The notes: generated by a model not told the origin, from the sequence alone. DNA of 64,000 nucleotides from Candidatus Taylorbacteria bacterium RIFCSPLOWO2_01_FULL_48_100 (GCA_001821135.1 MHSA01000011.1:3042-67041); one strand, 5' to 3'; counted from the first letter of the stretch, positions 3,750 to 61,000 are shown. Numbers and translations: made by a program.

Positions 3750-4217
3750 ATGAAAGAAATCCTTTCTCACAGCATCGCAGACACCGCGAAGTTTGCGCAA
3801 GAGTTTCTTGCTGGGCTGTTTCCATGTGCAGATTCGTCGACAGTTGTTGGGTTATACGGAGATCTCGGTTCGGGCAAGACCGCGTTTGTTCAGCAGATTG
3901 CGAAAGCACTCGGCGCGCGCGGCTCTGTCCAAAGCCCGACTTTTGTCATTATGAAAAAATATGCGCTAAAAAATCCCCCCTCACTCCCCCCTTTATTAAA
4001 GGGGGGATATAGAGGGGATTTACAACTTGTCCATATAGACGCCTACCGTTTAGACAGCGCCACGGATTTAAAAAAACTCGGCTGGGATGCGCTCTCAAGC
4101 GACCATAGTAATCTCATTTTCATAGAATGGGCAGACCGAGTCGCCGACATTTTACCGCTTGACCATATTAAACTCCGCTTTGAGTTTGTAGATGATACAA
4201 CTCGCAAGATATCGTAA
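3750..4217 (+). CDS. tsaE: tRNA threonylcarbamoyladenosine biosynthesis ATPase TsaE (YjeE), carrying a ~17-aa in-frame palindromic-repeat insertion
   Basis: P-loop GDLGSGKT, SPTF motif and HIDAYRL motif are present. The insertion KNPPSLPPLLKGGYRGD is encoded by the palindromic element at 3968-4021. Confidence 0.75.
   Translation: MKEILSHSIADTAKFAQEFLAGLFPCADSSTVVGLYGDLGSGKTAFVQQIAKALGARGSVQSPTFVIMKKYALKNPPSLPPLLKGGYRGDLQLVHIDAYRLDSATDLKKLGWDALSSDHSNLIFIEWADRVADILPLDHIKLRFEFVDDTTRKIS
3968..4021. repeat. G/C-rich palindromic repeat element, copy A (AAATCCCCCCTCACTCCCCCCTTTATTAAAGGGGGGATATAGAGGGGATTT), in-frame inside tsaE
   Basis: Nested inverted repeats. Shares the AAATCCCCTCC...GGAGGGGATTT module with copies at 35846, 55199 and 55722. 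Confidence 0.6.
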
Positions 4218-6142: not shown

Positions 6143-8656
6143 ATGATCTCAACGATGGCTGAAAAACAGAACAAGCGGCTGGTGCTTATAGATGCGCACG
6201 CGATACTGCATCGCGCATATCATGCGTTGCCGGAGTTTAGTAATAGCAAAGGCGAACCGACGGGCGGGCTCTATGGGCTTGCGGCGATGCTTATTAAAAT
6301 TATTGCGGATTTAAAACCCGACTATCTTGCTGCAGCGTACGATTTGCCGAAGCCGACTTTTCGGCATACTGCGTACAAAGAGTACAAAGAAGGGCGGGCG
6401 AAGGCAGACGATGCGCTCATTTCACAAATGAAACGCTCGCGCGAGATTTTTGAAGCGTTTGGAATCCCGATTTACGACAAAGAAGGGTTTGAAGCGGATG
6501 ATATTCTCGGTACGATTGTAGAAAAGTTACAAGTTACACGCTACAAGTTACAAGTTGATATAGTTATCGCGTCTGGCGATATGGACACCCTACAATTAGT
6601 TGATGGAAAAAAAGTGCAAGTGTACACACTCAAAAAAGGGATTAATGACACGGTTTTGTATGACGAAGAAAAAGTAAGAGAACGCTATGGATTTGGTCCA
6701 AAACTTTTACCGGATTTTAAGGGGTTGAAAGGCGACCCGTCGGATAATATAAAAGGAATAAAAGGGATTGGCGATAAAACTGCGACCGAACTCATACAAA
6801 AATTCGGCTCGGTTGAGGAAATCTATAAGAAGTTGAAGAAAGATAGGGGTATATTTGAGAAAGAAGGAATAAGTGCGCGAATGATTGGACTATTGGATGC
6901 GGGAAAAGAAGATGCTGAGTTTTCTAAAATACTCGGAACTATTCGGCGCGATGCGCCGATTGAATTCGCACTTCCTGAAAAGCCGTGGCGTGAGTGTGCG
7001 AATGTGGGTAATGCAGAAAAGTTATTTCAAGAGTTGGAGTTTCGCAACCTTGGGCAGAGGTTGCGGGCGGCGATATCAAAAGTTTCTTCATCTCGCCCTT
7101 TTCAAGGGGGAGTACCCGAGCGAAGCGAGGGGGAGGGGGTGGTTTCTGCAGAAATTAAATCACCCCTCCGCCCAGCACTTTCTTCAGAAAGTGCTGGGCA
7201 CCTCCCCTTAATCAAGGGCAGGATGAAAGAAAAAGAATTTTCCGACCTCTCCATCGCCCTTTGGCTCATCAATTCCAACCTAACAAACCCGACCGCGGAC
7301 GATGTGTGTAATTTTGCAGGAACGAAAGATGTGAGCGTGGCGCGCGCGAAAATTCTTGCGGAACTGAAAACGCGCGGCCTCGCGCGCGTATTTGAAGAGA
7401 TTGAAAAACCACTCATTCCTGTTGTTGAAAAAATGAACGCCCGCGGCGTGAAAATGGATACAAAGTATCTTGCCGTGCTTTCTACAGAGTACCACCGCGA
7501 GCTTGCTGCGCTGAAAAAAGAAATCTGGAGTATGGCTGGAACCGAATTTAATGTAAATTCACCAAAACAGCTTGGCGAACTTTTGTTTGTAAAAATGGGG
7601 CTTAAGGCGGCGCGACAGAAGAAGACGGCAGGAGGCGCGCTTTCAACACGCGAAAGCGAGCTTGAAAAGATGCGCGATTTGCACCCAATTATTGCGAAGA
7701 TTCTTGAGTACCGCGAGTTTCAGAAACTACTCTCAACCTATATTGACGCGCTTCCAGAATCGGTAGATACGCACGGTCGCTTGCACGCGTCGTTTTTGCA
7801 GGCGGGAACGACGACGGGGCGAATGTCGTCGCAAAATCCGAACTTGCAAAATATCCCCATTCAGACCGCGCGCGGCAGGCGGATTCGGAACGCATTCGTC
7901 GCGGATAATGGCTGTGCGCTCCTCGCGTTTGATTACTCGCAAGTAGAACTTCGCGTTGCGGCAATTCTTTCTGGAGACCAGAAACTTATTGAAATCTTCA
8001 AGAAAGGGGAAGATGTACATACTGCGGTGGCGGCGGAAGTTTTTGGTGTCGCGCCAGAAAAAGTGACTAAAGAAATGCGCCGACAGGCGAAAGTAATTAA
8101 CTTCGGAATTTTGTACGGTATGGGAGTGAATGCGTTGCGCGCTACACTCGGAGATGTAGAAACTCCAGTATCGCGCGCGGACGCGCAGAAATACTTGGAC
8201 GAATATTTCGCGCGCTTTCCAGTGCTCGCCGCGTATTTGGAAGAAACAAAAGCCGTCGCGCGCGAGCGCAGCTACACAGAGACCTTATTCGGGCGGCGCA
8301 GATATTTTGAGGCGCTCAATTCGCCGATTTCGTACATCCGCGCGGCAGCAGAGCGGCAAGTGATTAACGCGCCGATACAAGGCACTGCCGCAGATATCGT
8401 GAAAATTGCGATGGCTCGGGTGGCTGAATTTTTGCGAGACGAGAAATTAGACGAAAAAGCACGCTTGATTTTACAAGTGCATGATGAATTGGTATATGAA
8501 GTGAAAAAAGAGTCGGTTTCCGAGCTCGCGCCAAAAATACAAAAGATAATGGAGGGCGTGTTGTCTCCAGGGCAGTCGCGGGGTGTGCCGATTCTGGTAG
8601 AAGTGAGCGTCGGCGACAATTGGGGGGAGATGCGGAAGTTAGTGGAAAGTAGTTAG
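6143..8656 (+). CDS. polA: DNA polymerase I (5'-3' exonuclease domain plus family-A polymerase domain; no obvious 3'-5' proofreading domain)
   Basis: N-terminal LVLIDAHAILHRAYHA (5' nuclease). C-terminal family-A motifs DYSQVELR, the O-helix RRQAKVINFGILYG, and QVHDELV. Start placed at ATG 6143 (alternative 6155), after the upstream terminator. Confidence 0.9.
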   Translation: MISTMAEKQNKRLVLIDAHAILHRAYHALPEFSNSKGEPTGGLYGLAAMLIKIIADLKPDYLAAAYDLPKPTFRHTAYKEYKEGRAKADDALISQMKRSREIFEAFGIPIYDKEGFEADDILGTIVEKLQVTRYKLQVDIVIASGDMDTLQLVDGKKVQVYTLKKGINDTVLYDEEKVRERYGFGPKLLPDFKGLKGDPSDNIKGIKGIGDKTATELIQKFGSVEEIYKKLKKDRGIFEKEGISARMIGLLDAGKEDAEFSKILGTIRRDAPIEFALPEKPWRECANVGNAEKLFQELEFRNLGQRLRAAISKVSSSRPFQGGVPERSEGEGVVSAEIKSPLRPALSSESAGHLPLIKGRMKEKEFSDLSIALWLINSNLTNPTADDVCNFAGTKDVSVARAKILAELKTRGLARVFEEIEKPLIPVVEKMNARGVKMDTKYLAVLSTEYHRELAALKKEIWSMAGTEFNVNSPKQLGELLFVKMGLKAARQKKTAGGALSTRESELEKMRDLHPIIAKILEYREFQKLLSTYIDALPESVDTHGRLHASFLQAGTTTGRMSSQNPNLQNIPIQTARGRRIRNAFVADNGCALLAFDYSQVELRVAAILSGDQKLIEIFKKGEDVHTAVAAEVFGVAPEKVTKEMRRQAKVINFGILYGMGVNALRATLGDVETPVSRADAQKYLDEYFARFPVLAAYLEETKAVARERSYTETLFGRRRYFEALNSPISYIRAAAERQVINAPIQGTAADIVKIAMARVAEFLRDEKLDEKARLILQVHDELVYEVKKESVSELAPKIQKIMEGVLSPGQSRGVPILVEVSVGDNWGEMRKLVESS
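7095..7224. repeat. G/C-rich modular palindromic repeat element, copy B, inserted in-frame in the polA inter-domain linker (encodes ~43 aa: RPFQGGVPERSEGEGVVSAEIKSPLRPALSSESAGHLPLIKGR)
   Basis: Module GGGGGAGTACCCGAGCGAAGCGAGGGGGAGGGGGTG is identical to copy D at 39550-39642. Module CAGCACTTTCTTCAGAAAGTGCTGGGCACCTCCCC is shared with copy E. The ending CCTTAATCAAGGGCAGGAT is shared with copies C and D. Confidence 0.75.
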
Positions 8657-11380: not shown

Positions 11381-11390
11381 CCGACCCTAA

Positions 11391-11448
11391 AACCACCCCT
11401 CCGCCTCGCGGACTCGGCACCTCCCCTTATGTTAAGGGCAGGATGGAA
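11391..11448. repeat. G/C-rich palindromic repeat element, copy C (intergenic)
   Basis: CACCCCTCCGCC and CCTTATGTTAAGGGCAGGATGG modules are shared with copies B and D. Confidence 0.6.
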
Positions 11449-17937: not shown

Positions 17938-18044
17938 CCACAACGGCAAGGTTGCGAACGGCAACTGGAACCCGAACAACCGCCAGGTCTACCTCAACTG
18001 GAACTATGCCGACAATTGCAATCCGAACAACGGCGCTCGCTCAG
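17938..18044 (+). repeat. DGR template repeat (TR)
   Basis: Non-coding copy of the VR with many AAC codons. All informative mismatches are TR-A to VR-N. Confidence 0.85.
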
Positions 18045-18066
18045 AAATTTCTCGTACCAAGGAGCC

Positions 18067-18386: not shown

Positions 18387-18393
18387 TCGAATC

Positions 18394-22663: not shown

Positions 22664-22703
22664 AAAAACAGATCATCTCCCGTCGGGAGATGATCTGTTT
22701 TTT
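22664..22703. terminator. Bidirectional rho-independent terminator (AACAGATCATCTCCCG-TCGGGAGATGATCTGTT flanked by A-run and T-run)
   Basis: Perfect 15-bp stem with poly-A/T on both sides, between the DUF378 gene (+) and tRNA-Val (-). Confidence 0.8.
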
Positions 22704-23533: not shown

Positions 23534-23578
23534 ACATACGAATATACGAACAATACGAATCTACGAATGGCTACGAAT
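23534..23578. repeat. Tandem TACGAAT element, copy 2 (CATACGAATATACGAACAATACGAATCTACGAATGGCTACGAAT); its 3' end forms the rluA-like start codon (ATGGCTACGAAT = MATN)
   Basis: Near-identical to the inverted copy at 29143-29188; related to 2727-2775. Confidence 0.6.
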
Positions 23579-29142: not shown

Positions 29143-29188
29143 TTTCGTAGCCATTCGTAGATTCGTATTGTTCGTATATTCGTATATG
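29143..29188. repeat. Tandem TACGAAT element, copy 3, in inverted orientation (reverse complement CATATACGAATATACGAACAATACGAATCTACGAATGGCTACGAAA), directly before the nusG start
   Basis: About 95% identical to copy 2 on the opposite strand. Confidence 0.6.
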
Positions 29189-29732: not shown

Positions 29733-30155
29733 ATGGCAAAGAAATTACTGCGAAAGTTGAAGTTGATTGTTCCAGGTGCGGCGGCAACGCCCGCGCCGCC
29801 TTTGGGTCCCGCTTTGGGGCAGGCGAAGGTAAACATCGGTGAGTTCGTGACTCGCTTCAATGCGGCGACGCAAAAGATGAAGGGCGAGACGCTTCCTGTG
29901 GAAGTGCATATTTTTGACGACAAGTCGTTTGACCTAAAAATAAAAGCGCCGACTGTTTCCAGTATGCTTCTCAAGGCAATCGGCAAAGAGAAAGGTGCGG
30001 GCAAGCCGCCGGTAGAAAAAGCGGGAACAATTACTAAGGCGAAATTGCGCGAAATTGCAGAAAAGAAAATGCAGGACTTGAATACAACCACAATTGAAGC
30101 CGCCGAAAAAATAGTCGCCGGTAGCGCGCTGTCTATGGGGATAGAAATTAAATAG
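29733..30155 (+). CDS. rplK: 50S ribosomal protein L11
   Basis: KLIVPGAAATPAPPLGPALGQAKVNIGEFV...FDLKIKAPTVSSMLLKA is the L11 signature. Confidence 0.9.
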   Translation: MAKKLLRKLKLIVPGAAATPAPPLGPALGQAKVNIGEFVTRFNAATQKMKGETLPVEVHIFDDKSFDLKIKAPTVSSMLLKAIGKEKGAGKPPVEKAGTITKAKLREIAEKKMQDLNTTTIEAAEKIVAGSALSMGIEIK

Positions 30156-30708
30156 CGCGTTCCAAATCAACCCACACATATCTTAATCCAGTTTTCGTGT
30201 CAGTTCTTTCTTCGCGGAATACTTCGTGCGTGAAGTCCTTGTTCCAGTCGTGGAAGAAAACATCACCCTCCGCATCGCTTTCAACGAGCGTGAGGTAGAG
30301 TTTGTCGGTGAGCGGGAGCGCTTGTTTATAAATCTCTCCGCCACCGATGATGAAGATTTCCTTTTTGTTTTCCTCCTGCCCTTTTCCAAAGGGGAGGTGT
30401 CTCCCATAGGGAGACGGAGGGGTGTCTTCTGTTTTCTGCGCAATTTGTATCGCTTCTTCAAGCGACCCCGCAACCACCACTCCTTCCTTCTTAAAATACG
30501 GATTGCGCGTTATAACGATATTTGTGCGGTTTGGAAGTGCTTTGCCGATAGAGTCAAATGTCTTTCTGCCCATAATAACCGTATGTCCAGTCGTGAGCAC
30601 CTTAAACCGCTTAAGGTCGTCCGAAATGCGCCAAAGGAGCGCGCCCGCCTTTCCAATCGCGCGATTGTTCCTCCCCACCGCGGCAATGATGCTGATGCAC
30701 GCTTCCAT
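30148..30708 (-). CDS. folA: Dihydrofolate reductase carrying a ~24-aa in-frame palindromic-repeat insertion
   Basis: ISIIAAVGRNNRAIGKAGALLW...DLKRFKVLTTGHTVIMGRKTF ... IGGGEIY are DHFR motifs. The insertion EDTPPSPYGRHLPFGKGQEENKKE is encoded by the palindromic element at 30379-30426. Confidence 0.85.
   Translation of the reverse strand: MEACISIIAAVGRNNRAIGKAGALLWRISDDLKRFKVLTTGHTVIMGRKTFDSIGKALPNRTNIVITRNPYFKKEGVVVAGSLEEAIQIAQKTEDTPPSPYGRHLPFGKGQEENKKEIFIIGGGEIYKQALPLTDKLYLTLVESDAEGDVFFHDWNKDFTHEVFREERTDTKTGLRYVWVDLERAI
30379..30426. repeat. G/C-rich palindromic repeat element, copy H (CCCTTTTCCAAAGGGG ... GTCTCCCATAGGGAGAC), in-frame inside folA
   Basis: Two inverted-repeat modules in the style of the CCCTTATCATAAGGGGG modules of copies B, C and D. 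Confidence 0.55.
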
Positions 30709-33310: not shown

Positions 33311-34498
33311 ATGAAAGACCTACAAATCAAAAAATTGATGGATGCCGAGAAAAAGCGGCAGAAAAGCGTGATTAACCTAATTGCCTCGGAAAATTATGTT
33401 TCCAAAGATGTGCTTGAGGCACTTGGAAGCGAGCTCACCAATAAATACGGCGAAGGGTATCCTGGTAAACGCTACTATCGCGGGTGCGCGGTTGTTGACG
33501 AGGTAGAGCGCGCAGCGCGGAAGCGCGCGCTTGATTTGTTTGGGCTTACCGAAAAAGAATGGGGAGTTAATGTGCAACCATTATCGGGTTCGCCCGCCAA
33601 CTTCGCAGTGTATGCTGCACTTGTTCCAATTGGTGGAAAGGTGATGGGTATGTCGCTTGACCACGGCGGACACCTCACTCACGGCCAGCCCGTTTCTATG
33701 ACTGGAAAGGTGTGGAAGCAAGTGCCGTACGGATTGGATAAGGAAACCGAAAGATTGGATTACGAACACATTAAAAAGATTGCGACAGAAAACAAGCCCG
33801 CTCTTATCGTTGCGGGTTTTACTGCATACGCGCACATCATTGATTTTAAGAAGTTTCGCGAAATCGCGGATTTATGCAACGCGATTTTAATGGTAGATAT
33901 GTCGCATTTTGCTGGGCTAGTTGCAGGTGGAGAGTATCCATCGCCGTTTGCATATGCGGACATTGTAACGACGACAACTCACAAAACTCTACGAGGACCG
34001 CGCTCGGCGCTCATTTTCTCAAAAGAAGACGAACGAAAGTTGCCTAGAAAAATTGATAAAGCAATTCTACCAGGATTGCAGGGCGGTCCGCACTTCAACC
34101 AAATTGCGGCGGTGGCGGTGGCGCTCAAAGAGGCGAGTACGCCTTCGTTTAAGAAATACGCGGCGCAAGTGGTAAAGAACGCGCGCGCGCTCGCGGATGA
34201 ATTGCAAAAGCTCGGACACAGGATTGTAGAAGGCGGAACGGAAACGCACCTCTTGCGCATTGACACTTGGCTCGGCGGCCGCGGAATCGGGGGGCGGGAA
34301 GCCGCCGACAAACTTGAGGCGGCGGGGATTATCGTGAGTGAAAGCACTCTTCCATTTGATACGCGCGGTCCGGTAGACCCATCGGGCATACGGCTCGGCA
34401 GTGCGGCAGAGACCACGCGTGGCAAAAAAGAGAAGGACTTTATAGCAATCGCGCGGAAAGTTGATAGAATACTCCGTAATGGTAACAGAGAGCATTAA
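33311..34498 (+). CDS. glyA: Serine hydroxymethyltransferase
   Basis: LIASENYVSKDVLEALGSELTNKYGEGYPGKRYY ... VTTTTHKTLRGPR (PLP lysine region). Confidence 0.95.
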   Translation: MKDLQIKKLMDAEKKRQKSVINLIASENYVSKDVLEALGSELTNKYGEGYPGKRYYRGCAVVDEVERAARKRALDLFGLTEKEWGVNVQPLSGSPANFAVYAALVPIGGKVMGMSLDHGGHLTHGQPVSMTGKVWKQVPYGLDKETERLDYEHIKKIATENKPALIVAGFTAYAHIIDFKKFREIADLCNAILMVDMSHFAGLVAGGEYPSPFAYADIVTTTTHKTLRGPRSALIFSKEDERKLPRKIDKAILPGLQGGPHFNQIAAVAVALKEASTPSFKKYAAQVVKNARALADELQKLGHRIVEGGTETHLLRIDTWLGGRGIGGREAADKLEAAGIIVSESTLPFDTRGPVDPSGIRLGSAAETTRGKKEKDFIAIARKVDRILRNGNREH

Positions 34499-36152
34499 AC
34501 AGGCGGTTGCGGAAGCACTCACAAAACTTGGGATTAAAAATCCCGATGTGTCGTTGGAACACCCAGAGGAATTGTCGCACGGCGATTATTCCACGAATGT
34601 TGCGCTTCGGTATGCGAAAGAACTTAAAAAAAGCCCGCAGACAATCGCAGAAGATATAATACGATATATCGTACTACAGAAGATTCCAGCACTTGCGCGC
34701 GCGGAAGCGGCGGCAGGTTTTGTGAACTTTTTTCTCGCCGGAGAATTCTTTGCGGAACGAATACAAGAGATTTTGGAAAAGAAAGATGGTTTTGGAAAGC
34801 AGGATGTTGGAAAGGGAAGGAAAGTGGTTGTAGAATTTTCGTCTCCGAACATTGCAAAGCCGTTTACGATTGGGCATTTGCGCTCAACAATTATCGGAGA
34901 CGCAGTTGCGAAAACGCTCTCTTTTCTAGGATATTCTGTTATCCGCGACAATCACCTCGGTGATTGGGGTACGCAATTCGGAAAAATGATTGTTGCGATT
35001 AAGAAGTGGGGAGATATTCAGAAAATTGCAGAAAACGCGGCTCCTGTTAGAGCGTTGGTGGATTTGTATGTCTGTTTTCACGCTGAAGCAAAAACGAACA
35101 TCGCGCTTGAAGATGAGGCGCGTGAGTGGTTTGTGAAATTGGAGAAAGGAGATGAAGAAGCGCGCGGTTTGTGGAAGCAGTGCGTAGCGTGGTCAATGAA
35201 GGAGTTTGAGTCGCTGTACAAACGGCTTGGCGTTTCTTTTGATACGATGCATGGAGAGAGTTTTTTTGAAGATAAAATGCGCGCTGTGGTGGAGGATCTT
35301 GAACGGAAAAATCTCTTAAAAGAAAGCGAAGGCGCGCGGCTTGTATTTTTTCCTAGCGATTCCTTGCCGCCGCTTATGATAATAAAAAAAGACGGCGGGA
35401 CATTGTACGCGACTCGCGACCTGGCGACTGATGCATGGAGGAAAAGAGAGTATGGCGACGGGGTAATTATCGTCAATGAGACGGGCGGAGAGCAATCGCT
35501 GTATTTCAAGCAGGTTTTTATGCTGGAAGAAATGCTCGGCTGGTTTGCGCGCGGCGAGCGGGTGCACATCGGGCACGGGCTCACGCGTGGGAAAGAAGGG
35601 AAGATGAGCACGCGGGAGGGCAACACGATTTGGCTTGAAGATGTGCTTGACGAGGCAGTGAAGCGCGCGGAAGCAATAAATAAAGAGACGGCAGAAATAG
35701 TTGGAATCGGCGCGCTTAAGTTTAACGACTTGAAGCGGGAGGCGAAACAAGACACCATTTTTGATTGGAATGATGTGCTGAATATGAAAGGCGACTCTGG
35801 ACCGTACTTGCAGTATTCTTATGCGCGGGCAATGTCGGTAATCAGAAAATCCCCTCCTCAGTTGAGGAGGGGTGCCGAGTTCGCGAGGCGGGGTGGTGGT
35901 GTTACTACATTAGAACGCCTCCTTTACCGATTTCCTGAAGTCGTACTGCGCGCGGGCAAGGACTACGCGCCGCATTTTATTGCGACTTATCTTATTGAAT
36001 TAGCGGGCGCGTTTAACAATTGGTATGCGAAGGAGCGCATTCTTAATGCTGGGGAGGAAACGGAATACCGCCTCGCGCTCACCGCCGCATTCGCGCAGGT
36101 TATGAAAAATGGACTTTGGCTACTTGGCATCGCCGCGCCGGAGAAGATGTAA
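34479..36152 (+). CDS. argS: Arginine--tRNA ligase carrying a ~19-aa in-frame palindromic-repeat insertion near residue 455
   Basis: SSPNIAKPFTIGHLRSTIIGDA (HIGH-like), GDWGTQFGKMI, and a C-terminal DALR domain. The insertion SPPQLRRGAEFARRGGGVT is encoded by repeat copy G. Confidence 0.9.
   Translation: MVTESIKQAVAEALTKLGIKNPDVSLEHPEELSHGDYSTNVALRYAKELKKSPQTIAEDIIRYIVLQKIPALARAEAAAGFVNFFLAGEFFAERIQEILEKKDGFGKQDVGKGRKVVVEFSSPNIAKPFTIGHLRSTIIGDAVAKTLSFLGYSVIRDNHLGDWGTQFGKMIVAIKKWGDIQKIAENAAPVRALVDLYVCFHAEAKTNIALEDEAREWFVKLEKGDEEARGLWKQCVAWSMKEFESLYKRLGVSFDTMHGESFFEDKMRAVVEDLERKNLLKESEGARLVFFPSDSLPPLMIIKKDGGTLYATRDLATDAWRKREYGDGVIIVNETGGEQSLYFKQVFMLEEMLGWFARGERVHIGHGLTRGKEGKMSTREGNTIWLEDVLDEAVKRAEAINKETAEIVGIGALKFNDLKREAKQDTIFDWNDVLNMKGDSGPYLQYSYARAMSVIRKSPPQLRRGAEFARRGGGVTTLERLLYRFPEVVLRAGKDYAPHFIATYLIELAGAFNNWYAKERILNAGEETEYRLALTAAFAQVMKNGLWLLGIAAPEKM
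35846..35903. repeat. G/C-rich palindromic repeat element, copy G (AAATCCCCTCCTCAGTTGAGGAGGGGTGCCGAGTTCGCGAGGCGGGGTGGTGGTGTT), in-frame inside argS
   Basis: Shares the AAATCCCCTCCTCA(A/G)(C/T)TGAGGAGG module with copies E and F. Confidence 0.65.
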
Positions 36153-36159
36153 AATATAT

Positions 36160-39100
36160 ATGAACACAGACAATCAACAACAAAAAAAGACGATTGCCGA
36201 GAAAGAGAAAGAAATCTTGAAGTTTTGGAAAGAAAACAGGGTTTTTGAAAAAACATTGGAGAAAAAAGCTCCAAAAGGCGATTTCGTTTTTTACGACGGG
36301 CCGCCGTTTGCGACGGGGCTCCCGCACCACGGCTCGCTCCTCTCGTCTGTCATTAAAGATGTAGTACCGCGCTACAAGACAATGCGCGGGTTCCGCGTCG
36401 AGAGGCGGTGGGGGTGGGACTGCCACGGGCTTCCGATTGAGAGCTTGGTAGAAAAACGGCTTGGACTTAAAACGAAAAAAGACATTGAAAAAATCGGCGT
36501 TGCGGCGTTCAACGAAGCGGCGCGCGAGAGCGTGCTTGAATTTGAGAAAGAGTGGGAGAAATATATTGAACGGGTTGGGCGGTTTGTTGATTTCAAGAAC
36601 TCCTACAAGACGATGGACAACTCTTATATGGAGAGCGTGTGGGGCGCGCTGAAAAAGCTTCACGAAAAGAAATTGCTATACGAAGGAAAGAAAGTGCTTA
36701 TGTATTGCCCGCACTGTGAGACCCCGCTCGCAAAAGCGGAAATCGCGATGGATAATACCTATAAGAAAATTACTGAGGAGGCAGTTACTGTGAAGTTTAA
36801 GGTCAAAAATGAACCAAATACACATCTTTTGGCGTGGACGACGACGCCGTGGACATTGCCGGGGAATGTCGCTCTTGCTGTCGGTAAAAAGATTGTCTAT
36901 GTAAAAGCAAAAGTTGGTAGCGAGATTTTTATTATTGCAAAAGACCGTTTGGAAATATTGGATGGAAAACAATATGAAATTATTGAAGAGGTTGTCGGTA
37001 AAGATTTGGTGGGCTTGGAATACGAACCAGTTTACGGAGTACCTAAAATACTTAAACAATTTAAAATAAATGCAATTGAGCCGCATCGTATTCTTGAGGC
37101 AGGGTTTGTAAATACCAATGAGGGTACAGGAATTGTACACATTGCGCCAGCATACGGAGAAGAAGATTATCAGTTAGCGGGTCGCAATGATTTACCAATA
37201 GTGCAACTACTTGATGCTGGCGCGAAGTACAACGATAGCGCGCCTGAATTTTTGCGCTGTAAGTATGTAAAGAGCGCGGAAAAAGAAATAAAAGAGGATT
37301 TGGAAAAGCGCGCGTTTTTGTTTGCGCGCGCGATGAATACGCACGAGTACCCGCACTGTTACCGATGCGGCACCCCACTGATTTACAATGCGGTCCCGTC
37401 ATGGTTTATCGCTATACAAGATGCGAAAAAGAAGATGCTTTCGGAGAACGAAAAGATACAATGGGTGCCTGAGCACCTGAAGCATGGGCGCTTCAAGAAC
37501 ATCGTTGAAGGCGCGCCCGATTGGAACATTTCGCGAAGCCGCTTTTGGGCAACGCCATTGCCGATTTGGAAAGAAAAAGGTGGCGAGCGCGTAATGGTTG
37601 TTGGCTCGCTTGAAGAACTAAAAAAGCGCGTGAAAAAGTCGGGCAATCAATATTTTGTAATGCGGCATGGCGAGGCGGTAGATAATGCTGAACATAAAGA
37701 AGACATTTATGGCGACCCGCAGAATCATCTAACTGATAAAGGAAAGAAAGGTGCTGTGCATACAGCCGCTAATCTTAAAAAGGAGCGTATTGACCTCATT
37801 ATCACCTCGCCATTTGTGCGCACGCGCGAAACCGCTCTGCTTATCCAAAAAGAGCTCGGATTGTCGGACGATACGGTGGTAGTTGATGAACGCTTACACG
37901 AGCGCAACGAGCCGACCTTAGTAGAAGTGCGTCGGCGCGTGGGCGAATTCTTGTTTGAAATAGAGCGCCGCGAGCAAAACAAAAACATACTTATTGTCGG
38001 ACACGGCAGTCCGCTTTGGGTTTTGTCCCAAGTTGCGGAAGGCAAACCGTCGGACGATTTTCAAGACAGAGTGATGTTGGAACTTGCCAAAGCGCGCGCG
38101 CTTCCGTTTATTCCGTTTCCACATAACAAGGACTATGAGATTGATTTACACCGTCCGTGGATTGATGCACTGACGCTTGTTGATGAAGGTGGGAGAGAAT
38201 ACGAGCGCATTCCGGAAGTGGTTGATTGTTGGGTGGAATCGGCAGCGATGCCGTTTGCGTCCGGCACTGCGAAATACCCTGCGGACTTTATTGCAGAGTA
38301 TATTGCGCAAACGCGCACTTGGTTTTACTACCTCCACGCGCTCGGCATTTTGCTTGTGGGCAAGCGAGCGTTTAACGCAGTCGTGTCTACAGGAACGCTT
38401 CTCGCAGAAGATGGCGCAAAGATTTCTAAATCAAAAGGCAACTACACCGACCCGTTTCTTCTTATGGACAAGTATGGCGCAGATGCGTACCGCTTTTACC
38501 TTATGGGAAGCGTGGTGATGCAAGGCGAGGACCTTTCTTTTCGCGATAGCGATGTGCGCGAAGCGCACAATCGCGTTGTCGGAATACTCCGCAACTGCCT
38601 CGCTTTTTTTGAGTTGTATAAAAATAAATATGACGGAAATACGAAGGCGGAAGAAAGCGCGCACATTTTGGATAAATGGATTCGCGCGCACCTTAGGCGG
38701 AGTACGGCAGTAATTACGGATGCGATGGAGGCGTACGACACGCCTTCCGCATGCCGCGAGATTCGTGCGTTCACAGAAGATTATTCTACATGGTACATTC
38801 GCCGCTCGCGCGAACGGGTGAAGTCCGCCTCTTCTGCGGACGAGGCAGGTAGCGCTGACGCGCAACACTGCCTCGCAACCCAACGCGAAGTTCTTCTCGC
38901 GCTCTCAAAACTCATTGCGCCGATAATGCCGTTCTTGGCGGAGGAGATATATAAATCGGTTGACGGAGAAAAAGAGAGCGTGCATCTAGACGGATGGCCG
39001 GAAGTCGGAAGTCGAAAGTCGGAAGAAAAATTGTTTGAAGAAATGGAAAAAGTGAGGAAGATTGTGTCGCTCGCGCTGGAAGCGCGTGCGAAGGCGAATA

Positions 39101-39522
39101 TCAAAATACGGCAACCACTCGCTTTGCTCAAAATCCGAAATCCGAAATCCGAAATCCGAAATAAACCAGAATTACTTAATTTAATAAACGAAGAAATAAA
39201 TGTTAAGAAAATAATTTTTGATGAAGAAGTTGCAGGAGAAGTGGAATTAGATACAGCGATAACGCCAGAACTAAAAGAAGAAGGCGAGTTTCGCGGGCTT
39301 TTGCGCGCGGTACAGAATTTGCGCAAGAAAAAAGGTCTCACCATTTCCGATGTTGCAACGCTTCTTGTGGACACGAGCGCGGATGGCAAAAGGTTTGTTG
39401 AAAAGTTTTCAAGTGAACTCAAAAAATCCGCATTACTCAAAGATATTGAGTTTGTTTCGGTTGCGTATGGGGAAGCGGTTGCTGTTGGCGAACATACAGC
39501 CAAACTTGACATTCGGAAGTGA
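36160..39522 (+). CDS. ileS: Isoleucine--tRNA ligase with a ~165-aa histidine-phosphatase (PGM/SixA-like) domain inserted inside the catalytic core
   Basis: HIGH (PHHG), WNISRSRFWATPLPIW, DCWVESAAMPF and KMSKS (KISKSKG) are all present in order. Between PIW and DLHRPW lies YFVMRHGEAVDN ... ITSPFVRTRETALLI ... ILIVGHGSPLWVL, the RHG / SP.RA.ET / GHG motifs of the histidine phosphatase superfamily. Confidence 0.9.
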   Translation: MNTDNQQQKKTIAEKEKEILKFWKENRVFEKTLEKKAPKGDFVFYDGPPFATGLPHHGSLLSSVIKDVVPRYKTMRGFRVERRWGWDCHGLPIESLVEKRLGLKTKKDIEKIGVAAFNEAARESVLEFEKEWEKYIERVGRFVDFKNSYKTMDNSYMESVWGALKKLHEKKLLYEGKKVLMYCPHCETPLAKAEIAMDNTYKKITEEAVTVKFKVKNEPNTHLLAWTTTPWTLPGNVALAVGKKIVYVKAKVGSEIFIIAKDRLEILDGKQYEIIEEVVGKDLVGLEYEPVYGVPKILKQFKINAIEPHRILEAGFVNTNEGTGIVHIAPAYGEEDYQLAGRNDLPIVQLLDAGAKYNDSAPEFLRCKYVKSAEKEIKEDLEKRAFLFARAMNTHEYPHCYRCGTPLIYNAVPSWFIAIQDAKKKMLSENEKIQWVPEHLKHGRFKNIVEGAPDWNISRSRFWATPLPIWKEKGGERVMVVGSLEELKKRVKKSGNQYFVMRHGEAVDNAEHKEDIYGDPQNHLTDKGKKGAVHTAANLKKERIDLIITSPFVRTRETALLIQKELGLSDDTVVVDERLHERNEPTLVEVRRRVGEFLFEIERREQNKNILIVGHGSPLWVLSQVAEGKPSDDFQDRVMLELAKARALPFIPFPHNKDYEIDLHRPWIDALTLVDEGGREYERIPEVVDCWVESAAMPFASGTAKYPADFIAEYIAQTRTWFYYLHALGILLVGKRAFNAVVSTGTLLAEDGAKISKSKGNYTDPFLLMDKYGADAYRFYLMGSVVMQGEDLSFRDSDVREAHNRVVGILRNCLAFFELYKNKYDGNTKAEESAHILDKWIRAHLRRSTAVITDAMEAYDTPSACREIRAFTEDYSTWYIRRSRERVKSASSADEAGSADAQHCLATQREVLLALSKLIAPIMPFLAEEIYKSVDGEKESVHLDGWPEVGSRKSEEKLFEEMEKVRKIVSLALEARAKANIKIRQPLALLKIRNPKSEIRNKPELLNLINEEINVKKIIFDEEVAGEVELDTAITPELKEEGEFRGLLRAVQNLRKKKGLTISDVATLLVDTSADGKRFVEKFSSELKKSALLKDIEFVSVAYGEAVAVGEHTAKLDIRK

Positions 39523-39549
39523 TTCGTGATTTTTTGTATTCTTTCCTCT

Positions 39550-39642
39550 CGCCCTTATCATAAGGGGGAGTACCCGAGCGAAGCGAGGGGGAGGGGGTGT
39601 CAGAAAAAAAACACCCCTCCCTTTCCCTCCCCTTAGGTAAAG
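39550..39642. repeat. G/C-rich modular palindromic repeat element, copy D (intergenic, between ileS and recO)
   Basis: CCCTTATCATAAGGGGGAGTACCCGAGCGAAGCGAGGGGGAGGGGGTG ... ACACCCCTCCC ... CCCCTTAGGTAAAGGGCAGGGTAT. The GGGGGAGTACCCGAGCGAAGCGAGGGGGAGGGGGTG module is identical to copy B. Confidence 0.75.
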
Positions 39643-39661
39643 GGCAGGGTATAAAGAAAAT

Positions 39662-40252
39662 ATGTATCACCTCTATCACACCCCCGCGTTGGTTCTCGGA
39701 AGCTCGCCGACTGGCGAAGGAAGCCGCACTGTGGAACTTTTTACGCGGGAACTCGGATTAGTTTCAGCGCGCGCGCAAGGCGTGCGCCTTGCGCGTTCTA
39801 AACTCCGCTATCACTTGACCGATTTTTCCTACACCGATGCGTGGCTTGTGCGCGGGCGCGAAGTGTGGCGGCTTGCAAACGCCGTGTCGCGCGCGAATTT
39901 CTTCTCGGAACTTGTGGGGGATTCCGCCGCGCGCGCGGTTCTCGCGCGCGCGGCGCTGCTTCTGCGGCGACTCCTTCCGCCCGAAGAAAAGCATGAAAAG
40001 CTTTTTGACGCCGTTGTGTCGTGCGCTGCGTTTTTTCAGAGCCGCACCTGTTCGGCGGGTGAATTTCGCGATATTGAGATTTTGCTCGCGCTTCGCATTT
40101 TGTTCCACTTGGGTTACTTAGGTGAGCCGAAAGAATTTTTGGAAGTCGCGGCTGGCGAGAGTTTCGGTGCGTTTGAGATTTCGTCAATTGCGCCGCTTCG
40201 GCGTCAGTTGGTTTCAATAATAAATTCGTCTCTGCGAATAACTGGTTTGTGA
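39662..40252 (+). CDS. recO: DNA repair protein RecO
   Basis: Has the N-terminal OB-fold pattern ALVLGSSPTGEGSRTVELFTRELGLVSARAQGVR.ARSKL typical of RecO. Confidence 0.7.
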   Translation: MYHLYHTPALVLGSSPTGEGSRTVELFTRELGLVSARAQGVRLARSKLRYHLTDFSYTDAWLVRGREVWRLANAVSRANFFSELVGDSAARAVLARAALLLRRLLPPEEKHEKLFDAVVSCAAFFQSRTCSAGEFRDIEILLALRILFHLGYLGEPKEFLEVAAGESFGAFEISSIAPLRRQLVSIINSSLRITGL

Positions 40253-52681: not shown

Positions 52682-53026
52682 TTAAATATTATCTGCTGTG
52701 CGATACGCATCAAGATATTTTTCGTTCGTTCTTCCGAAGCGGTCGCTCGCCGCGACTGTAATACTATTATATCCCGGTAAGAGTAGTGCCGTCTCTTGCC
52801 AGAGCCCGTTTTCATCGGTGAAAATCTGTTTGCCATTCAGCGATAAAAACGCAATCCGTTTCGCCTCGCCCCCGATATGTACAAGTGCTCCGTCCTGCGC
52901 GGTGCTTTCAATATAGAGGGAAGGGCCGCGTAAATATTCACGCGCCTGATATGTGCCGTACGACGCAAGTCCGGCAAGAGTGATAACCGCAAGCGCGAAC
53001 GCAAGCCGTGTGCGGAGATTTCTCAT
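52682..53026 (-). CDS. Hypothetical signal-anchored small protein
   Basis: 114-aa ORF between recA and ftsK on the same strand, with an N-terminal TM helix. Confidence 0.4.
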
Positions 53027-55198: not shown

Positions 55199-55346
55199 CA
55201 AATCTCCCACTCAGTTGAGGGGGAGTACTTGAGTCCGTCTAATGCGGACGAATAGGAAGGGTGGGTTCGGGAAAAACACCACCACCTCCCCCAGCACTTT
55301 CTAAAGAAAGTGCTGGGTACTCCTCCTCAATTAATGAGGAGATTTA
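55199..55346. repeat. G/C-rich modular palindromic repeat element, copy E (largest, ~148 bp)
   Basis: AAATCTCCCACTCAGTTGAGGGGGAG ... CAGCACTTTCTAAAGAAAGTGCTGGGTACTCCTCCTCAATTAATGAGGAGATTT. Shares modules with copies B, F and G. Confidence 0.7.
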
Positions 55347-55409: not shown

Positions 55410-55652
55410 TTATTTGTAGCATTTTTTTTCGTTTGATTTACAAACCTCCTCGTAACTTATCCAGAACACTAAAACAAAGAGTATTGCCGCAAACGCAGGT
55501 AGTGTCCACAGTGTTCCCTCAAAAGAGAGGAATAAAAGACAACCCAATAAAAGCAGCAAAAACATTTTCGGTTTCCTTATCACCGCAATTGCTATGCTAA
55601 AGGCATCTTTTATGTTTTTTCGATTATTCTTCATAGCGTCCACTTTCTTCAT
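55410..55652 (-). CDS. Hypothetical small membrane protein flanked by repeat copies E and F
   Basis: 80-aa ORF with one or two TM helices. Confidence 0.35.
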   Translation of the reverse strand: MKKVDAMKNNRKNIKDAFSIAIAVIRKPKMFLLLLLGCLLFLSFEGTLWTLPAFAAILFVLVFWISYEEVCKSNEKKCYK

Positions 55653-55721: not shown

Positions 55722-55751
55722 AAATCCCCTCCTCAACTGAGGAGGAGATTA
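55722..55751. repeat. Palindromic repeat element, copy F (AAATCCCCTCCTCAACTGAGGAGGAGATT)
   Basis: Minimal module also present in copies E and G. Confidence 0.6.
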
Positions 55752-55813
55752 AAGAGAAGCACCTTGCCTTGCTCACCCTTCTGTTTCCCATCGCAAAAAA
55801 CGCTTGAAAGAAC

Positions 55814-56650
55814 AAATGTCTTTTATGTATAATACAAATGTCCTTTATAAATGTCCGTTAGATTTTATAAACGACATTCATATATGTATAAAAAGAGCAT
55901 AAAGGACATTAGAAGAAATACAAATGTCCTTTATAAAAAGACAGAATATCCCGATATGTCCTTTATAGGCGGAGAGTACTTGATTTTCCTTGTTAAAAAG
56001 GTAGAAAACTTTGTTCGCGCTATATACCTAATAACAAATTTTCTATCGGACAGTGAGCCGTTAAAATGGAGATTACGGACAATCTCAACTGAATTAATTG
56101 ATAAGTTAATGTCCTTTATAAAAAGTGAAGTAAATCAAGTGAATATTCGTTTGTACCGCGCGGACTTTTTAGGGTGTCTCTCCGGTATTGTATCTCTGTT
56201 GAATGTAGGAGAAGAGGGCGGCGTTATTTCTGAAGCGAATGTTGCGCTTCTAAAGAGGGAAATACAAAGCTTTTTCCCCATTTTTAATGAGAGAATCTTT
56301 GTGATGCGCAAGGACGATATTGAAAATCTTCCGCTTGCAAAAAATAAAGAGGCGTCTTTTCGGCACAAACCTGCGCGCGGAAGACCCCGTCTTATGCGGA
56401 GGTTGTCCGTTAGAAACACTGAAGATGTTTTAATAAGTCCTATACAGGATTCTGATAACATACAAAATGTCTTTTATAAACATAAAGGACAAGACAATGT
56501 AAGCGTTCGTAAAAGAAATAAAAGAACAAGAAACATAGAAGACATAAGGTCAAAACTGCGCATCACTCGCCAGAAATCAATTATGGATATTCTAAAGGAC
56601 AAAAAGAAGTTAACAATTCGTGAGTTAATGTCCTTTATAAAGGACTGCGG
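55814..56650. repeat. Iteron-like array: at least 8 copies of ATGTCCTTTATAAA (and its inverse ATAAAGGACAT) in the promoter region and within the coding sequence of the 55851-56774 gene
   Basis: Copies at approximately 55819, 55838, 55898 (inverted), 55924, 55957, 56109, 56468 with adjacent inverted copy 56481, 56593 (inverted, partial: TAAAGGACAAAAAG) and the perfect palindrome GTCCTTTATAAAGGAC at 56631. Confidence 0.7.
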
Positions 56651-60932: not shown

Positions 60933-61000
60933 CCAGCCCCTTTCTCAAGGGGCTGGAGGCCACCCCCACACTTGATGCTATCAAGTGTGGGGGTTTTCGT
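60933..61000 (+). terminator. Tandem terminator hairpins after the surface-protein gene
   Basis: CCAGCCCCTTTCTCAAGGGGCTGG and CCCCCACACTTGATGCTATCAAGTGTGGGGG, followed by TTTT. Confidence 0.75.

What the first reader, a model, noticed from the sequence alone, without database searches (positions are those of the whole stretch)
39550..39642. Intergenic master copy of the modular palindromic repeat family (copy D), with other intergenic copies at 11391-11448, 55199-55346 and 55722-55751
At least eight elements in 64 kb are built from a small set of G/C-rich hairpin modules. These are AAATCCCCTCCTCA-N-TGAGGAGG; GGGGGAGTACCCGAGCGAAGCGAGGGGGAGGGGGTG; CAGCACTTTCT-N-AGAAAGTGCTGGG; and CCCTTAT-NN-TAAGGGCAGG. 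Different copies use different module combinations, like Correia, REP or RPE elements. The density (about one copy per 8 kb) and the module shuffling suggest an active or recently active non-autonomous element family specific to this lineage. Half the copies sit inside ORFs in-frame.
Basis: seen in the sequence. Interest (0 to 1): 0.65.

Follow-up and report, generated by a model that had tools for sequence, protein, structure and literature searches.

The report
Palindromic repeats linked to DUF559 nucleases
A real family of small G/C-rich hairpin repeats lies between genes and in-frame inside essential genes of a Candidatus Taylorbacteria genome; it appears to be the gene-less form of palindromes that flank a tiny DUF559 nuclease gene in many bacterial phyla, which points to a minimal mobile element that I could not find described.

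Summary
The window holds eight loci built from nine homologous "half-units" plus two hairpin-only fragments. Four loci sit in-frame in polA, argS, folA and tsaE. None is expected by chance, and all are identical in at least nine independent assemblies.

The family is not lineage-specific. Copy D shows no sign of being a master copy.

Clustering the ORFs around those hits found one recurrent neighbour, a ~115-aa DUF559 (Vsr-like PD-(D/E)XK) nuclease flanked on both sides by the modules. I then took 80 DUF559 loci chosen by protein alone. Pyrimidine-arm hairpins occur at ~0.8 per locus in the 100 nt on each side of the gene, against 11 in 223 kb farther away. Gene-plus-hairpin cassettes of 450-590 bp recur in unrelated contexts.

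A close relative lacks the polA and tsaE copies. Two contigs 99.9% identical differ by one 78-nt unit.

Best reading: copies A, D and F are gene-less derivatives of a DUF559 cassette, and the others are half-units or fragments of it. The arrangement resembles REPIN/RAYT or MITE/IS pairs, and the in-frame insertions resemble Rickettsia palindromic elements. That the nuclease mobilises the repeats is inferred, not shown. I found no publication linking DUF559 to repeats.

The parts
39545..39654 (.). Copy D, a full gene-less element between ileS (36109-39522) and a recO-like gene (39662-40252). Layout: left hairpin hp1 39548-39570; inner hairpin hp2 39573-39588; G-rich tract S2a 39589-39599; A-rich centre 39600-39611; C-rich tract S2b 39612-39621; right hairpin hp1 39625-39649.
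   Evidence: DNA fold z = -3.9. It aligns with the element directly upstream of the DUF559 gene in L204.
7089..7229 (.). Copy A, a full element in-frame inside polA (6080-8656), in the linker between the 5'-3' exonuclease and polymerase domains. It has the CAGCACTTTCT..AGAAAGTGCTG inner hairpin in its right half.
   Evidence: z = -6.1. It is absent from the 72%-identical polA orthologue in L056.
55199..55346 (.). Copy F, a full element between ftsK (53023-55164, minus strand) and a small minus-strand ORF (55410-55652). Its terminal hairpins are of the CTCCTCA..TGAGGAG type.
   Evidence: z = -7.7.
11390..11446 (-). Copy B, a single half-unit. It is intergenic and lies upstream of a promoter-like TTGACT-17-TATACT.
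   Evidence: The site is orthologous in L058 and L095. The minus-strand ORF that overlaps it looks non-coding.
30367..30426 (+). Copy C, a single half-unit in-frame inside folA (DHFR, 30148-30708, minus strand). It encodes TEDTPPSPYGRHLPFGKGQEE.
   Evidence: It is shared by the 83%-identical orthologue in L086. The site is empty in P0404 and P0412. The insert is predicted to be a low-confidence loop.
35846..35900 (+). Copy E, a single half-unit in-frame inside argS (34461-36152), within the DALR domain. It encodes KSPPQLRRGAEFARRGGGV.
3971..4021 (.). Copy H, a hairpin-only fragment in-frame inside tsaE (3750-4217). It encodes NPPSLPPLLKGGYRGDL.
   Evidence: (I23). A 33-nt insertion relative to the L056 orthologue.
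55722..55751 (.). Copy G, an isolated terminal hairpin AAATCCCCTCCTCAACTGAGGAGGAGATTT. It is intergenic.

Best explanation
The repeats are non-coding, gene-less derivatives of a small cassette found across bacteria. The cassette is a ~115-aa DUF559 (Vsr-like PD-(D/E)XK) nuclease gene bracketed by inverted arms.

Each arm, or half-unit, has three parts:
1. A pyrimidine-arm-first hairpin (hp1), such as CCTCCCCTT-loop-AAGGGGAGG.
2. A short linker plus a variable inner hairpin (hp2) whose stem covaries.
3. A G-rich tract (S2a, GGAGGGGTG). It is the mirror image of the hp1 purine arm and pairs with CACCCCTCC in the opposite arm.

Copies A, D and F are two arms around a short A/T-rich centre, where the gene sits in most cassettes. 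B, C and E are single arms. G and H are hairpin fragments.

Shown:
- the family and its architecture;
- its spread across many phyla;
- the tight, two-sided association of such hairpins with DUF559 genes;
- occurrence of the whole cassette in unrelated contexts;
- gain or loss of gene-less copies between relatives and between near-identical strains;
- survival of copies in-frame in permissive loops of essential proteins.

Inferred: the DUF559 nuclease recognises the hairpin, cruciform or triplex-prone arms and nicks or cuts there. Copies then spread by break repair or copying, either homing-like or REPIN/RAYT-like in trans. Selection keeps only insertions that are intergenic or in-frame in tolerant loops.
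For: Family and architecture:
- Module counts are far above chance.
- The nine half-units align end to end.

Pan-bacterial spread:
- The four bases just upstream, which were not part of the pattern, are CCTC in 80 of 109 distinct copies. This extends hp1 to 9 bp.
- hp2 covaries. In the 10-nt class, pair 1-9 is C-G in 8, G-C in 11, A-T in 1 and T-A in 1, with no mispairs. There are 87 distinct inner sequences.

DUF559 link:
- Unbiased ORF clustering over the repeat-selected loci found DUF559 next to the repeat in 6-7 loci from different phyla.
- In 80 loci selected by protein only, perfect 7-bp pyrimidine-arm hairpins occur at 0.80 per locus in the 100 nt upstream and 0.77 in the 100 nt downstream. 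Only 11 occur in 223 kb more than 500 nt away. Hairpins are present upstream in 59 of 77 loci and downstream in 49 of 70. Only 5 of 67 have neither.
- The same holds by eye for Neisseria, Bacteroidota and Ottowia. Kingella and E. coli ycjD show such hairpins only on the 3' side.

Cassette mobility:
- L184/L195 (92.5% identity over 453 nt) and L142/L146 (87% over 444 nt) share only the gene plus its hairpins, with sharp ends at the outer hairpins. For L170/L180 and L171/L181/L185 the similarity is likewise confined to ~500-590 nt around the gene.

This lineage:
- In relatives L083, L068 and L019, DUF559 is flanked by the same CPR-type arms (CCTGCCCTT..AAGGGGAGG).
- So is P0003, found in samples that also hold the window organism. 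A D-like full element lies directly upstream of P0003.

Gain and loss:
- L056 lacks A and H. L096 has its own copy in ftsK.
- L204 and L205 are 99.9% identical and differ by one 78-nt unit.
- The DHFR loop is empty in some orthologues and filled with different palindrome-derived peptides in others. The insert is modelled as a low-confidence loop.

Nuclease:
- The DUF559 profile hits PDB 3hrl at E = 1e-31. It also hits the mobile-intron homing endonuclease 3r3p at E = 1.5e-3.
- D52, E63 and H69 are among the invariant columns of the DUF559 alignment.

Literature:
- DUF559 is listed as enriched among predicted inversion targets (PMC9881135). That fits genes flanked by inverted repeats.
Against: - No biochemical or genetic evidence exists that DUF559 binds or cuts these arms. 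The link is positional only.
- The window has no DUF559 gene. The assignment of P0003 to the same genome rests on co-occurrence in samples, not on a shared contig.
- No target-site duplication or defined target was seen at the four sites where boundaries could be compared.
- All eight window copies are fixed in the population, so there is no sign of ongoing movement here.
- In most protein-selected loci the hairpins are confined to the gene's flanks. Proliferation of gene-less copies is therefore the exception.
- In the CPR relatives the gene lies between a right arm and a left arm, not in the centre of one element. Simple internal deletion of the gene does not describe every case.
- The 80 loci are the best matches to a CPR query and may over-represent one DUF559 subfamily.
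Confidence: 0.55

Rival explanations
1. The direction of dependence is reversed. DUF559 is a free-standing homing endonuclease gene that targets pre-existing palindromic repeats. It is copied into them by break repair, using the repeat arms as homology. The repeats themselves spread by some other process, either unknown or host-driven.
For: - DUF559 is related in sequence to the I-Bth0305I homing endonuclease domain.
- The gene sits between arms, in two different registers.
- Repeat arms would provide ready homology.
- The window genome segment has eight copies and no gene.
Against: - In protein-selected loci the hairpins are almost confined to the 200 nt next to the gene, with 11 in 223 kb elsewhere. 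Most DUF559 genes therefore do not sit in genomes full of empty targets.
- The cassettes carry their own hairpins into unrelated contexts.
Confidence: 0.2
2. The repeats are host-beneficial structural or regulatory elements, such as mRNA stabilisers, terminators, supercoiling or H-DNA sites, or ribosome-binding mimics. They are kept by selection, and DUF559 is only a frequent neighbour.
For: - Hairpin stems covary.
- Mirror-repeat, triplex-prone design.
- The G-rich tracts contain Shine-Dalgarno-like GGAGG.
- Some copies end a few bases before a start codon.
- REPs in other bacteria have such proposed roles (PMC3733652).
Against: - Four of the eight copies lie inside coding sequences of unrelated essential genes, in loops with no conserved function, and they are absent from orthologues.
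- There are no T-runs after the hairpins, and no Rfam match.
- The pattern of scattered, multi-copy genomes across phyla fits selfish spread better than a conserved host function.
Confidence: 0.12
3. It is an ordinary REP/REPIN or IS200/IS605-derived PATE family, mobilised by a Y1 (HUH) tyrosine transposase encoded elsewhere in the genome.
For: - Palindromic units occur singly and as inverted dimers, as in REP/REPIN (PMC3116915).
- Some clostridial copies are followed by GTAG plus a small palindrome.
Against: - No Y1 or other transposase family appears among the called genes of the window.
- None emerged as a recurrent neighbour in 114 repeat-selected loci.
- The CPR copies have no GTAG tag.
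- The recurrent neighbour is DUF559.
Confidence: 0.06
4. It is chance similarity of G/C-rich low-complexity sequence, or an assembly artefact.
For: The modules are purine- or pyrimidine-rich and short.
Against: - Shuffle controls give about 0 expected for the long modules.
- Contigs from nine assemblies covering the 20.6 kb around D are 99.8-100% identical, and two further contigs cover the remaining copies without a difference at any of them.
- Copies at orthologous sites are conserved in other species.
Confidence: 0.01

Closest known systems
REPIN/RAYT systems (REP-associated tyrosine transposases; Bertels & Rainey 2011, PMC3116915)
   Same: - Short palindromic units occur singly and as inverted dimers and are dispersed in the genome.
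- A small nuclease-type gene is itself flanked by the same repeats.
- In the Taylorbacteria relatives the gene keeps a conserved locus, groES-secG.
   Different: - The flanked gene is a PD-(D/E)XK Vsr-like DUF559 nuclease, not a Y1/HUH transposase.
- There is no GTAG tag in the CPR copies.
- The arms are composite (hp1 + hp2 + mirror G-tract).
- Some genomes carry several DUF559 paralogues.
- Copies are common inside genes.
Rickettsia palindromic elements (RPE). Own knowledge: Ogata et al. 2000, Science 290:347. Also mentioned in PMC1779305 and PMC10969869.
   Same: Palindromic repeats are inserted in-frame in essential protein-coding genes of a small, reduced genome. They add a peptide segment in a tolerated surface region.
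   Different: - The lineage is different and, as far as tested, so is the sequence.
- RPEs are A/T-rich and confined to Rickettsia. These repeats are G/C-rich and pan-bacterial.
- No protein partner is known for RPEs.
CGTC-tagged REPs (Di Nocera et al. 2013, PMC3733652; they include Neisseria dRS3 and RPE-4/RPE-6)
   Same: - Read on the C-rich strand, 41 of 107 copies have ...CCTC-CGTC-stem-loop and 45 of 107 a CCA tail. This matches the published description of a tag, a stem-loop and a tail.
- That paper reports copies within genes, and no associated transposase.
   Different: - Only the inner hairpin would correspond.
- The window copies mostly lack the CGTC tag and the A-T first stem pairs.
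- The published consensus figures could not be read, so identity is untested.
- Neisseria DUF559 is not flanked by dRS3.
MITEs and their parent insertion sequences (review PMC10969869)
   Same: - Non-coding elements have inverted ends and look like the parent cassette with its gene removed.
- They are far more numerous than the gene-bearing copy in this lineage.
   Different: - No target-site duplication was found.
- The putative parent is ~450-590 bp and encodes only a ~115-aa nuclease that is not a recognised transposase.
Homing endonuclease I-Bth0305I (PDB 3r3p) and Vsr
   Same: The DUF559 profile matches the I-Bth0305I catalytic domain at E = 1.5e-3. YcjD-like proteins group with Vsr (PMC1189080, PMC3424549).
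   Different: The DUF559 cassettes are free-standing, not intron- or intein-borne. No cleavage activity or target is known.

Membership tests
REP/REPIN-RAYT | An associated Y1 (HUH) tyrosine transposase gene flanked by the repeats | tested here: not met
   No such Pfam family appears among the called genes of the window. None is a recurrent neighbour in 114 loci. The flanked gene is DUF559.
REP/REPIN-RAYT | A palindromic unit with a conserved GTAG tag; inverted dimers (REPINs) | tested here: inconclusive
   Inverted dimers are present (A, D, F). The window copies have no GTAG tag. Some clostridial copies carry GTAG plus a palindrome.
MITE | Terminal inverted repeats and no coding capacity | tested here: met
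   The two arms of A, D and F are inverted copies of one half-unit. The elements are 110-148 nt long.
MITE | Target-site duplication | tested here: not met
   No duplication is visible at the tsaE filled/empty pair, at the L204/L205 indel, or at the ends of the L184/L195 and L142/L146 cassettes. The polA comparison is too divergent to tell.
MITE | A parent element encoding a recognised transposase with the same ends | tested here: inconclusive
   A gene-bearing cassette with the same arms exists. Its product is a nuclease not known to transpose.
Rickettsia palindromic elements | In-frame insertion of a palindromic repeat in protein-coding genes | tested here: met
   polA, argS, folA and tsaE. 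Orthologues lack the inserts.
Rickettsia palindromic elements | Sequence membership in RPE-1 to RPE-8 consensus families | not tested
   No RPE consensus sequences were available in the tools.
CGTC-tagged REPs (Di Nocera 2013) | CGTC tag, 8-9 bp stem starting with A-T pairs, 4-5 nt loop, CCA tail | tested here: inconclusive
   Across phyla, 41 of 107 copies have the tag and 45 of 107 the tail. In the window only copy C has the tag. The stem rule is mostly not met.
IS200/IS605 PATE | Sub-terminal hairpins recognised by TnpA (Y1), with a related IS in the genome | tested here: not met
   No TnpA or TnpB in the window or as a recurrent neighbour.
Intrinsic terminator | G+C-rich hairpin followed by a T-run, downstream of a gene | tested here: not met
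   The arms have no T-run. A genuine terminator at 22665-22700 looks different.
Any Rfam RNA family | Covariance-model match at the gathering score | tested here: not met
   Only tRNAs in the window. Only sub-threshold hairpin matches on D. Nothing on 15 DUF559 loci.
DUF559 (PF04480), the neighbouring gene and not the repeat | Pfam match above the gathering score; relationship to the Vsr-like fold | tested here: met
   E from 2e-34 to 5e-30 against a cut-off of 20.6 bits. PDB 3hrl at E = 1e-31 and 3r3p at E = 1.5e-3.

The most novel reading that the evidence does not exclude
DUF559 nucleases, with more than 23,000 clusters at 50% identity, would be the catalytic partners of a pan-bacterial superfamily of G/C-rich composite palindromes. 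Gene plus arms would form a minimal (~0.5 kb) mobile or homing cassette. Its gene-less derivatives would be the repeats seen here, and possibly the orphan CGTC-tagged REPs and some RPEs. This would be a second, mechanistically distinct REPIN/RAYT-like system built on a PD-(D/E)XK fold, with arms designed as hairpin plus mirror repeat (triplex or H-DNA prone).
Probability: 0.4. Interest if true: 0.9.

Novelty: new variant of a known kind. Interest (0 to 1): 0.75.

Why it matters
- DUF559 is one of the commonest uncharacterised small nuclease families. It has a solved structure but no known role. A consistent two-sided association with a defined DNA architecture gives it a testable function and substrate.
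- The association would supply a protein partner for palindromic repeat families that have none. The published CGTC-tagged REPs are explicitly "not associated to transposase genes".
- The in-frame copies show that CPR (Patescibacteria) genomes, which have almost no intergenic space, absorb selfish DNA into permissive loops of essential proteins such as PolA, ArgRS, DHFR, TsaE and FtsK. This explains part of the odd insertions seen in CPR proteins. It also explains the PP..P..KGG-type peptides at the ends of mis-called ORFs.
- Practically, these repeats will confuse gene calling, domain annotation, inversion predictors and MAG assembly.

Tried and rejected
- **Rfam.** Searches of the window, of copy D at a permissive threshold and of 15 DUF559 loci found nothing relevant.
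- **Literature by sequence string.** Only unrelated human or primer hits came back.
- **Literature by name.** I searched DUF559, PF04480, COG2852, YcjD and "Vsr-like + palindromic". No paper links the family to repeats. The only hint is its enrichment among predicted inversion targets.
- **Prediction that Neisseria DUF559 is flanked by dRS3 (CGTC-1) repeats.** Not confirmed. It is flanked by other pyrimidine-arm hairpins.
- **Copy B as a fifth genic copy.** Rejected, because the overlapping 154-aa ORF looks non-coding.
- **Extra candidates.** 22676-22690 is an ordinary terminator. 60935-60958 resembles hp1 only weakly.
- **Population polymorphism at the window copies.** None was found. The indels in L002 lie elsewhere.
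- **Target-site duplications.** None found.
- **Genic versus intergenic lengths modulo 3.** Eight copies are too few for a test.
- **One row of alignment A3.** The L083 row used wrong coordinates and should be ignored.

Full report
**1. What is in the window**

The sequence at 39545-39654 (copy D) lies between ileS and a recO-like gene. It reads: hairpin CTCgCCCTTAtcaTAAGGGgGAG, then TAC, then a small hairpin CCGAGCGAAGCGAGG, then GGGAGGGGGTG, an A-rich centre, CACCCCTCCC, and a second hairpin CCCTcCCCTTaggtaAAGGGcAGGG.

The quoted modules are far above chance:
- The 36-mer occurs twice with 0 expected.
- The CCCTTAT..TAAGGGCAGG module gives 8 hits against 0.07 expected.
- The other two modules give 5-6 hits against about 1 expected.

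Self-comparison and a profile search show that the window holds exactly nine homologous half-units. They align end to end: two each in A (7089-7229), D and F (55199-55346), and one each in B (11390-11446), C (30367-30426) and E (35846-35900). There are also two hairpin-only fragments, H (3971-4021) and G (55722-55751).

A half-unit consists of:
- a pyrimidine-arm-first hairpin (hp1);
- a short linker (TG or TAC);
- an optional inner hairpin (hp2) of variable sequence;
- a G-rich tract (S2a, GGAGGGGTG).

A full element is two half-units in inverted orientation around an A/T-rich centre.

A, C, E and H lie in-frame in polA, folA, argS and tsaE. B, D, F and G are intergenic. The ORF over B looks non-coding.

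The window is part of a 180-kb scaffold of a Rifle-aquifer Candidatus Taylorbacteria genome. For the 20.6 kb around D, contigs from nine assemblies match at 99.8-100%. Two further contigs cover the remaining copies. None shows a difference at any copy. Within this population the copies are fixed.

**2. The family is not lineage-specific**

I scanned one genome per species with the half-unit pattern CCCTT-N3-7-AAGGGGAGGTG-N3-33-GGAGGGGTG. It has 25 specified bases and three hits in the window.

The hits came from Bacteroidota (including the isolates Robertkochia and Emticicia), Cyanobacteria, Oscillospiraceae and other Clostridia, Kiritimatiellae, Victivallales, Puniceicoccales, Planctomycetia, Nitrospinota, Gammaproteobacteria, sphingomonads, Synergistaceae and several CPR lineages. 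Many genomes had many copies.

Features that were not part of the pattern are also conserved:
- The four bases before CCCTT are CCTC in 80 of 109 distinct copies and CCTG in 13, mostly CPR-labelled genomes. This extends hp1 to 9 bp.
- The free N3-33 segment is a hairpin with 87 distinct sequences and clean covariation. In the 10-nt class, pair 1-9 is C-G in 8, G-C in 11, A-T in 1 and T-A in 1, with no mispairs. The longer classes show many Watson-Crick types and recurrent tandem G·A pairs.

About one copy in nine lies inside a long ORF, in several phyla. Sequences outside the module are lineage-specific.

**3. The recurrent neighbour**

I clustered all ORFs of the 114 loci to look for a shared protein. 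The only family that sat next to the repeat in different phyla was a ~115-aa protein. It matches Pfam DUF559 at E of about 1e-30 to 1e-34. In those loci the gene has the repeat modules on one or both sides, in inverted orientation where both are present.

As an independent test I fetched 80 metagenomic loci chosen only by similarity to this protein.
- Perfect 7-bp pyrimidine-arm hairpins occur at 0.80 per locus in the 100 nt upstream of the gene and 0.77 in the 100 nt downstream.
- The rate falls to zero by 500 nt. Only 11 occur in 223 kb farther away.
- Hairpins are present upstream in 59 of 77 loci and downstream in 49 of 70. Only 5 of 67 have neither.
- The usual order is hp1, then a G-rich tract, then the gene, then a C-rich tract, then hp1. 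The nearest upstream hairpin is followed by a G-rich tract in 40 of 61 loci, and the nearest downstream hairpin is preceded by a C-rich tract in 32 of 55.

This is the architecture of copies D, A and F with a gene in the centre.

The same kind of flank is visible around DUF559 genes of Neisseria meningitidis (the family of PDB 3hrl, in the carA-carB repeat array), a Bacteroidota genome and Ottowia. Kingella kingae and E. coli K-12 ycjD show such hairpins only on the 3' side.

The family is large. It has 23,466 representatives at 50% identity with E ≤ 1e-3.

**4. Mobility**

*The cassette.* L184/L195 and L142/L146 share 444-453 nt containing the gene and its hairpins at 87-92.5% identity. Similarity stops sharply at the outer hairpins and the flanks are unrelated. 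For L170/L180 and L171/L181/L185 the BLAST similarity (87-90%) is likewise confined to about 500-590 nt around the gene.

*The gene-less copies.*
- The relative L056 has a PolA 72% identical in protein sequence. It lacks copy A in polA, and it lacks the 33-nt copy H in tsaE.
- L086 (DHFR 83% identical) shares copy C.
- The ftsK orthologue in L096 has its own in-frame copy, which the window lacks.
- Across Parcubacteria DHFRs, the loop between the SLEEAI helix and the EIFIIGGG strand is empty in some proteins. In others it is filled with different palindrome-derived peptides (PPS.., SPL.KG, PF.KG).
- The AlphaFold model has pLDDT below 50 for residues 99-112 only, which lie within the insert.

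*A recent event.* P0003 is a DUF559 protein 78% identical to that of the relative L083. It lies between groES and secG on contigs from samples that also contain the window organism. A D-like full element lies directly upstream and a half-unit downstream. Two such contigs, L204 and L205, are 99.9% identical and differ by one 78-nt repeat unit inserted next to GGCGGAGGGG.

No target-site duplication was seen at any of these junctions.

**5. How it probably works**

*Shown:* the architecture, its distribution, the positional link to DUF559, the portability of the cassette, and the gain and loss of copies.

*Inferred:* DUF559 is the enzyme that acts on the arms. The inference rests on three points.
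- The enzyme belongs to the Vsr-like PD-(D/E)XK fold (PMC3424549, PMC1189080).
- Its profile matches the solved DUF559 protein 3hrl at E = 1e-31. It also matches the catalytic domain of the mobile-intron homing endonuclease I-Bth0305I (3r3p) at E = 1.5e-3.
- Its Asp, Glu and His positions are invariant.

The most economical model has three steps. The nuclease recognises a structure or sequence in the arms. It nicks or cuts there. Repair or copying then spreads the arms with or without the gene. Purifying selection leaves only intergenic copies and in-frame copies in tolerant loops.

One further feature may matter for recognition. The G-rich tract after hp1 is the mirror image of the hp1 purine arm, often with A replaced by T. 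In the protein-selected loci the mirror match beats the direct match in 91 hairpins against 32, out of 197. This design would allow a purine-motif triplex or H-DNA. That is a structural hypothesis only.

**6. Rivals**

- DUF559 could instead be a homing gene that invades pre-existing repeats. Against this, most DUF559 genes sit in regions with no other copies, and cassettes carry their hairpins with them.
- A host regulatory role is hard to reconcile with copies inside coding sequences that orthologues lack.
- A Y1-transposase (REP/RAYT or IS200/IS605) system is not supported. No such gene is in the window or among recurrent neighbours.
- Chance and artefact are excluded by the controls.

**7. 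Relation to what is known**

Functionally the family behaves like three known kinds:
- REPINs with their RAYT (PMC3116915);
- MITEs with a parent IS (PMC10969869);
- for the in-frame copies, Rickettsia palindromic elements (own knowledge: Ogata et al. 2000).

It is not a member of the first two. The defining Y1 transposase, the GTAG tag and the target-site duplication are absent.

Part of the family fits the published description of CGTC-tagged REPs. Read on the C-rich strand, 41 of 107 copies have CCTC-CGTC-stem-loop and 45 of 107 a CCA tail. That superfamily includes Neisseria dRS3 and RPE-4/6, and its authors state that no transposase gene is associated with it (PMC3733652). I could not read its consensus figures, and the Neisseria DUF559 flanks are not dRS3. 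This remains a lead.

I found no paper that links DUF559 to repeats. The nearest is a table listing DUF559 among product names enriched in predicted inversion targets (PMC9881135), which is what flanking inverted repeats would produce. The library lacks most subscription-journal papers, so prior description cannot be excluded.

**8. Verdict**

The family is a non-autonomous, modular palindromic repeat family that inserts in-frame. It is not lineage-specific, D is not a master copy, and activity is not shown within the window.
- The family is a new variant of a known kind.
- The wider implication is a nuclease partner and a substrate for DUF559, and a class of minimal cassettes. It is worth experimental follow-up.

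Noticed in passing
window 16889-19281: A likely diversity-generating retroelement. A 117-nt repeat pair (17535-17651 at the 3' end of ORF 16889-17674, and 17931-18047) differs at 15 positions. Fourteen of them are adenines in the second copy. An ORF with a weak RVT_1 match follows at 18394-19281.
   Followed up: partly
window 36109-39522: The isoleucyl-tRNA synthetase carries a histidine-phosphatase (His_Phos_1) domain, best match at residues 516-600, inserted within its catalytic domain. The insertion is conserved in all strain variants.
   Followed up: no
window 690-796; L204 816-919: A ~107-nt intergenic segment with its own inverted repeats (685-712/755-782) is 93% identical to an intergenic segment between unrelated genes on the DUF559-bearing contig. 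This is a second, different repeat or conserved structured element.
   Followed up: no
window 23536-23577 and 29144-29185; also 2724-2768: A perfect 42-nt inverted repeat made of TACGAAT-like heptamers brackets a 5.6-kb segment. A related direct copy lies at 2724-2768. It could be an invertible segment or a repeated regulatory region.
   Followed up: no
window 55809-56480: Five copies of a 21-nt direct repeat (AATACAAATGTCCTTTATAAA) lie just upstream of and inside the 5' part of the HTH_DeoR-like ORF 55851-56774. The spacing is iteron- or operator-like.
   Followed up: no
alignment A2 (DHFR orthologues of Parcubacteria): The same DHFR loop also carries a second kind of palindrome-derived peptide (..SDLKS..RSDLK..). 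Other orthologues have further insertions at two more sites. This suggests several repeat families insert in-frame in these genomes.
   Followed up: partly
L212 (E. coli K-12, ycjD region) 4040-4420: Downstream of ycjD there is a partial duplicate of the gene's 3' end. It is followed by CCCCTCGCCCCTCTGGGGAGAGGGTTAGGGTGAGGGG, a palindrome of the same general kind as the DUF559 flanks elsewhere.
   Followed up: partly
L213 (Neisseria meningitidis) and L220 (Kingella kingae): In both genera the DUF559 gene sits in the carA-carB intergenic region. In Neisseria it is embedded in an array of ~270-nt repeat blocks containing the hairpins and DNA uptake sequences.
   Followed up: partly
L124-L203 and the window half-units: The G-rich tract following hp1 is the mirror image of the hp1 purine arm, often with A replaced by T. 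This is the design expected for an intramolecular purine-motif triplex or H-DNA.
   Followed up: partly
one search hit list: Many DUF559 proteins in public collections are 130-200 aa long, with the domain starting at residue 30-60. Some contain two or three tandem DUF559 domains. The extensions may be start codons mis-called through the upstream palindromes.
   Followed up: no
L005 1-1452 and L008 1-1606, compared with the window: Two contigs that carry the identical recO-like gene diverge completely from the window upstream, near window positions 33309 and 39312. These are strain-level rearrangements or chimeric assemblies.
   Followed up: no
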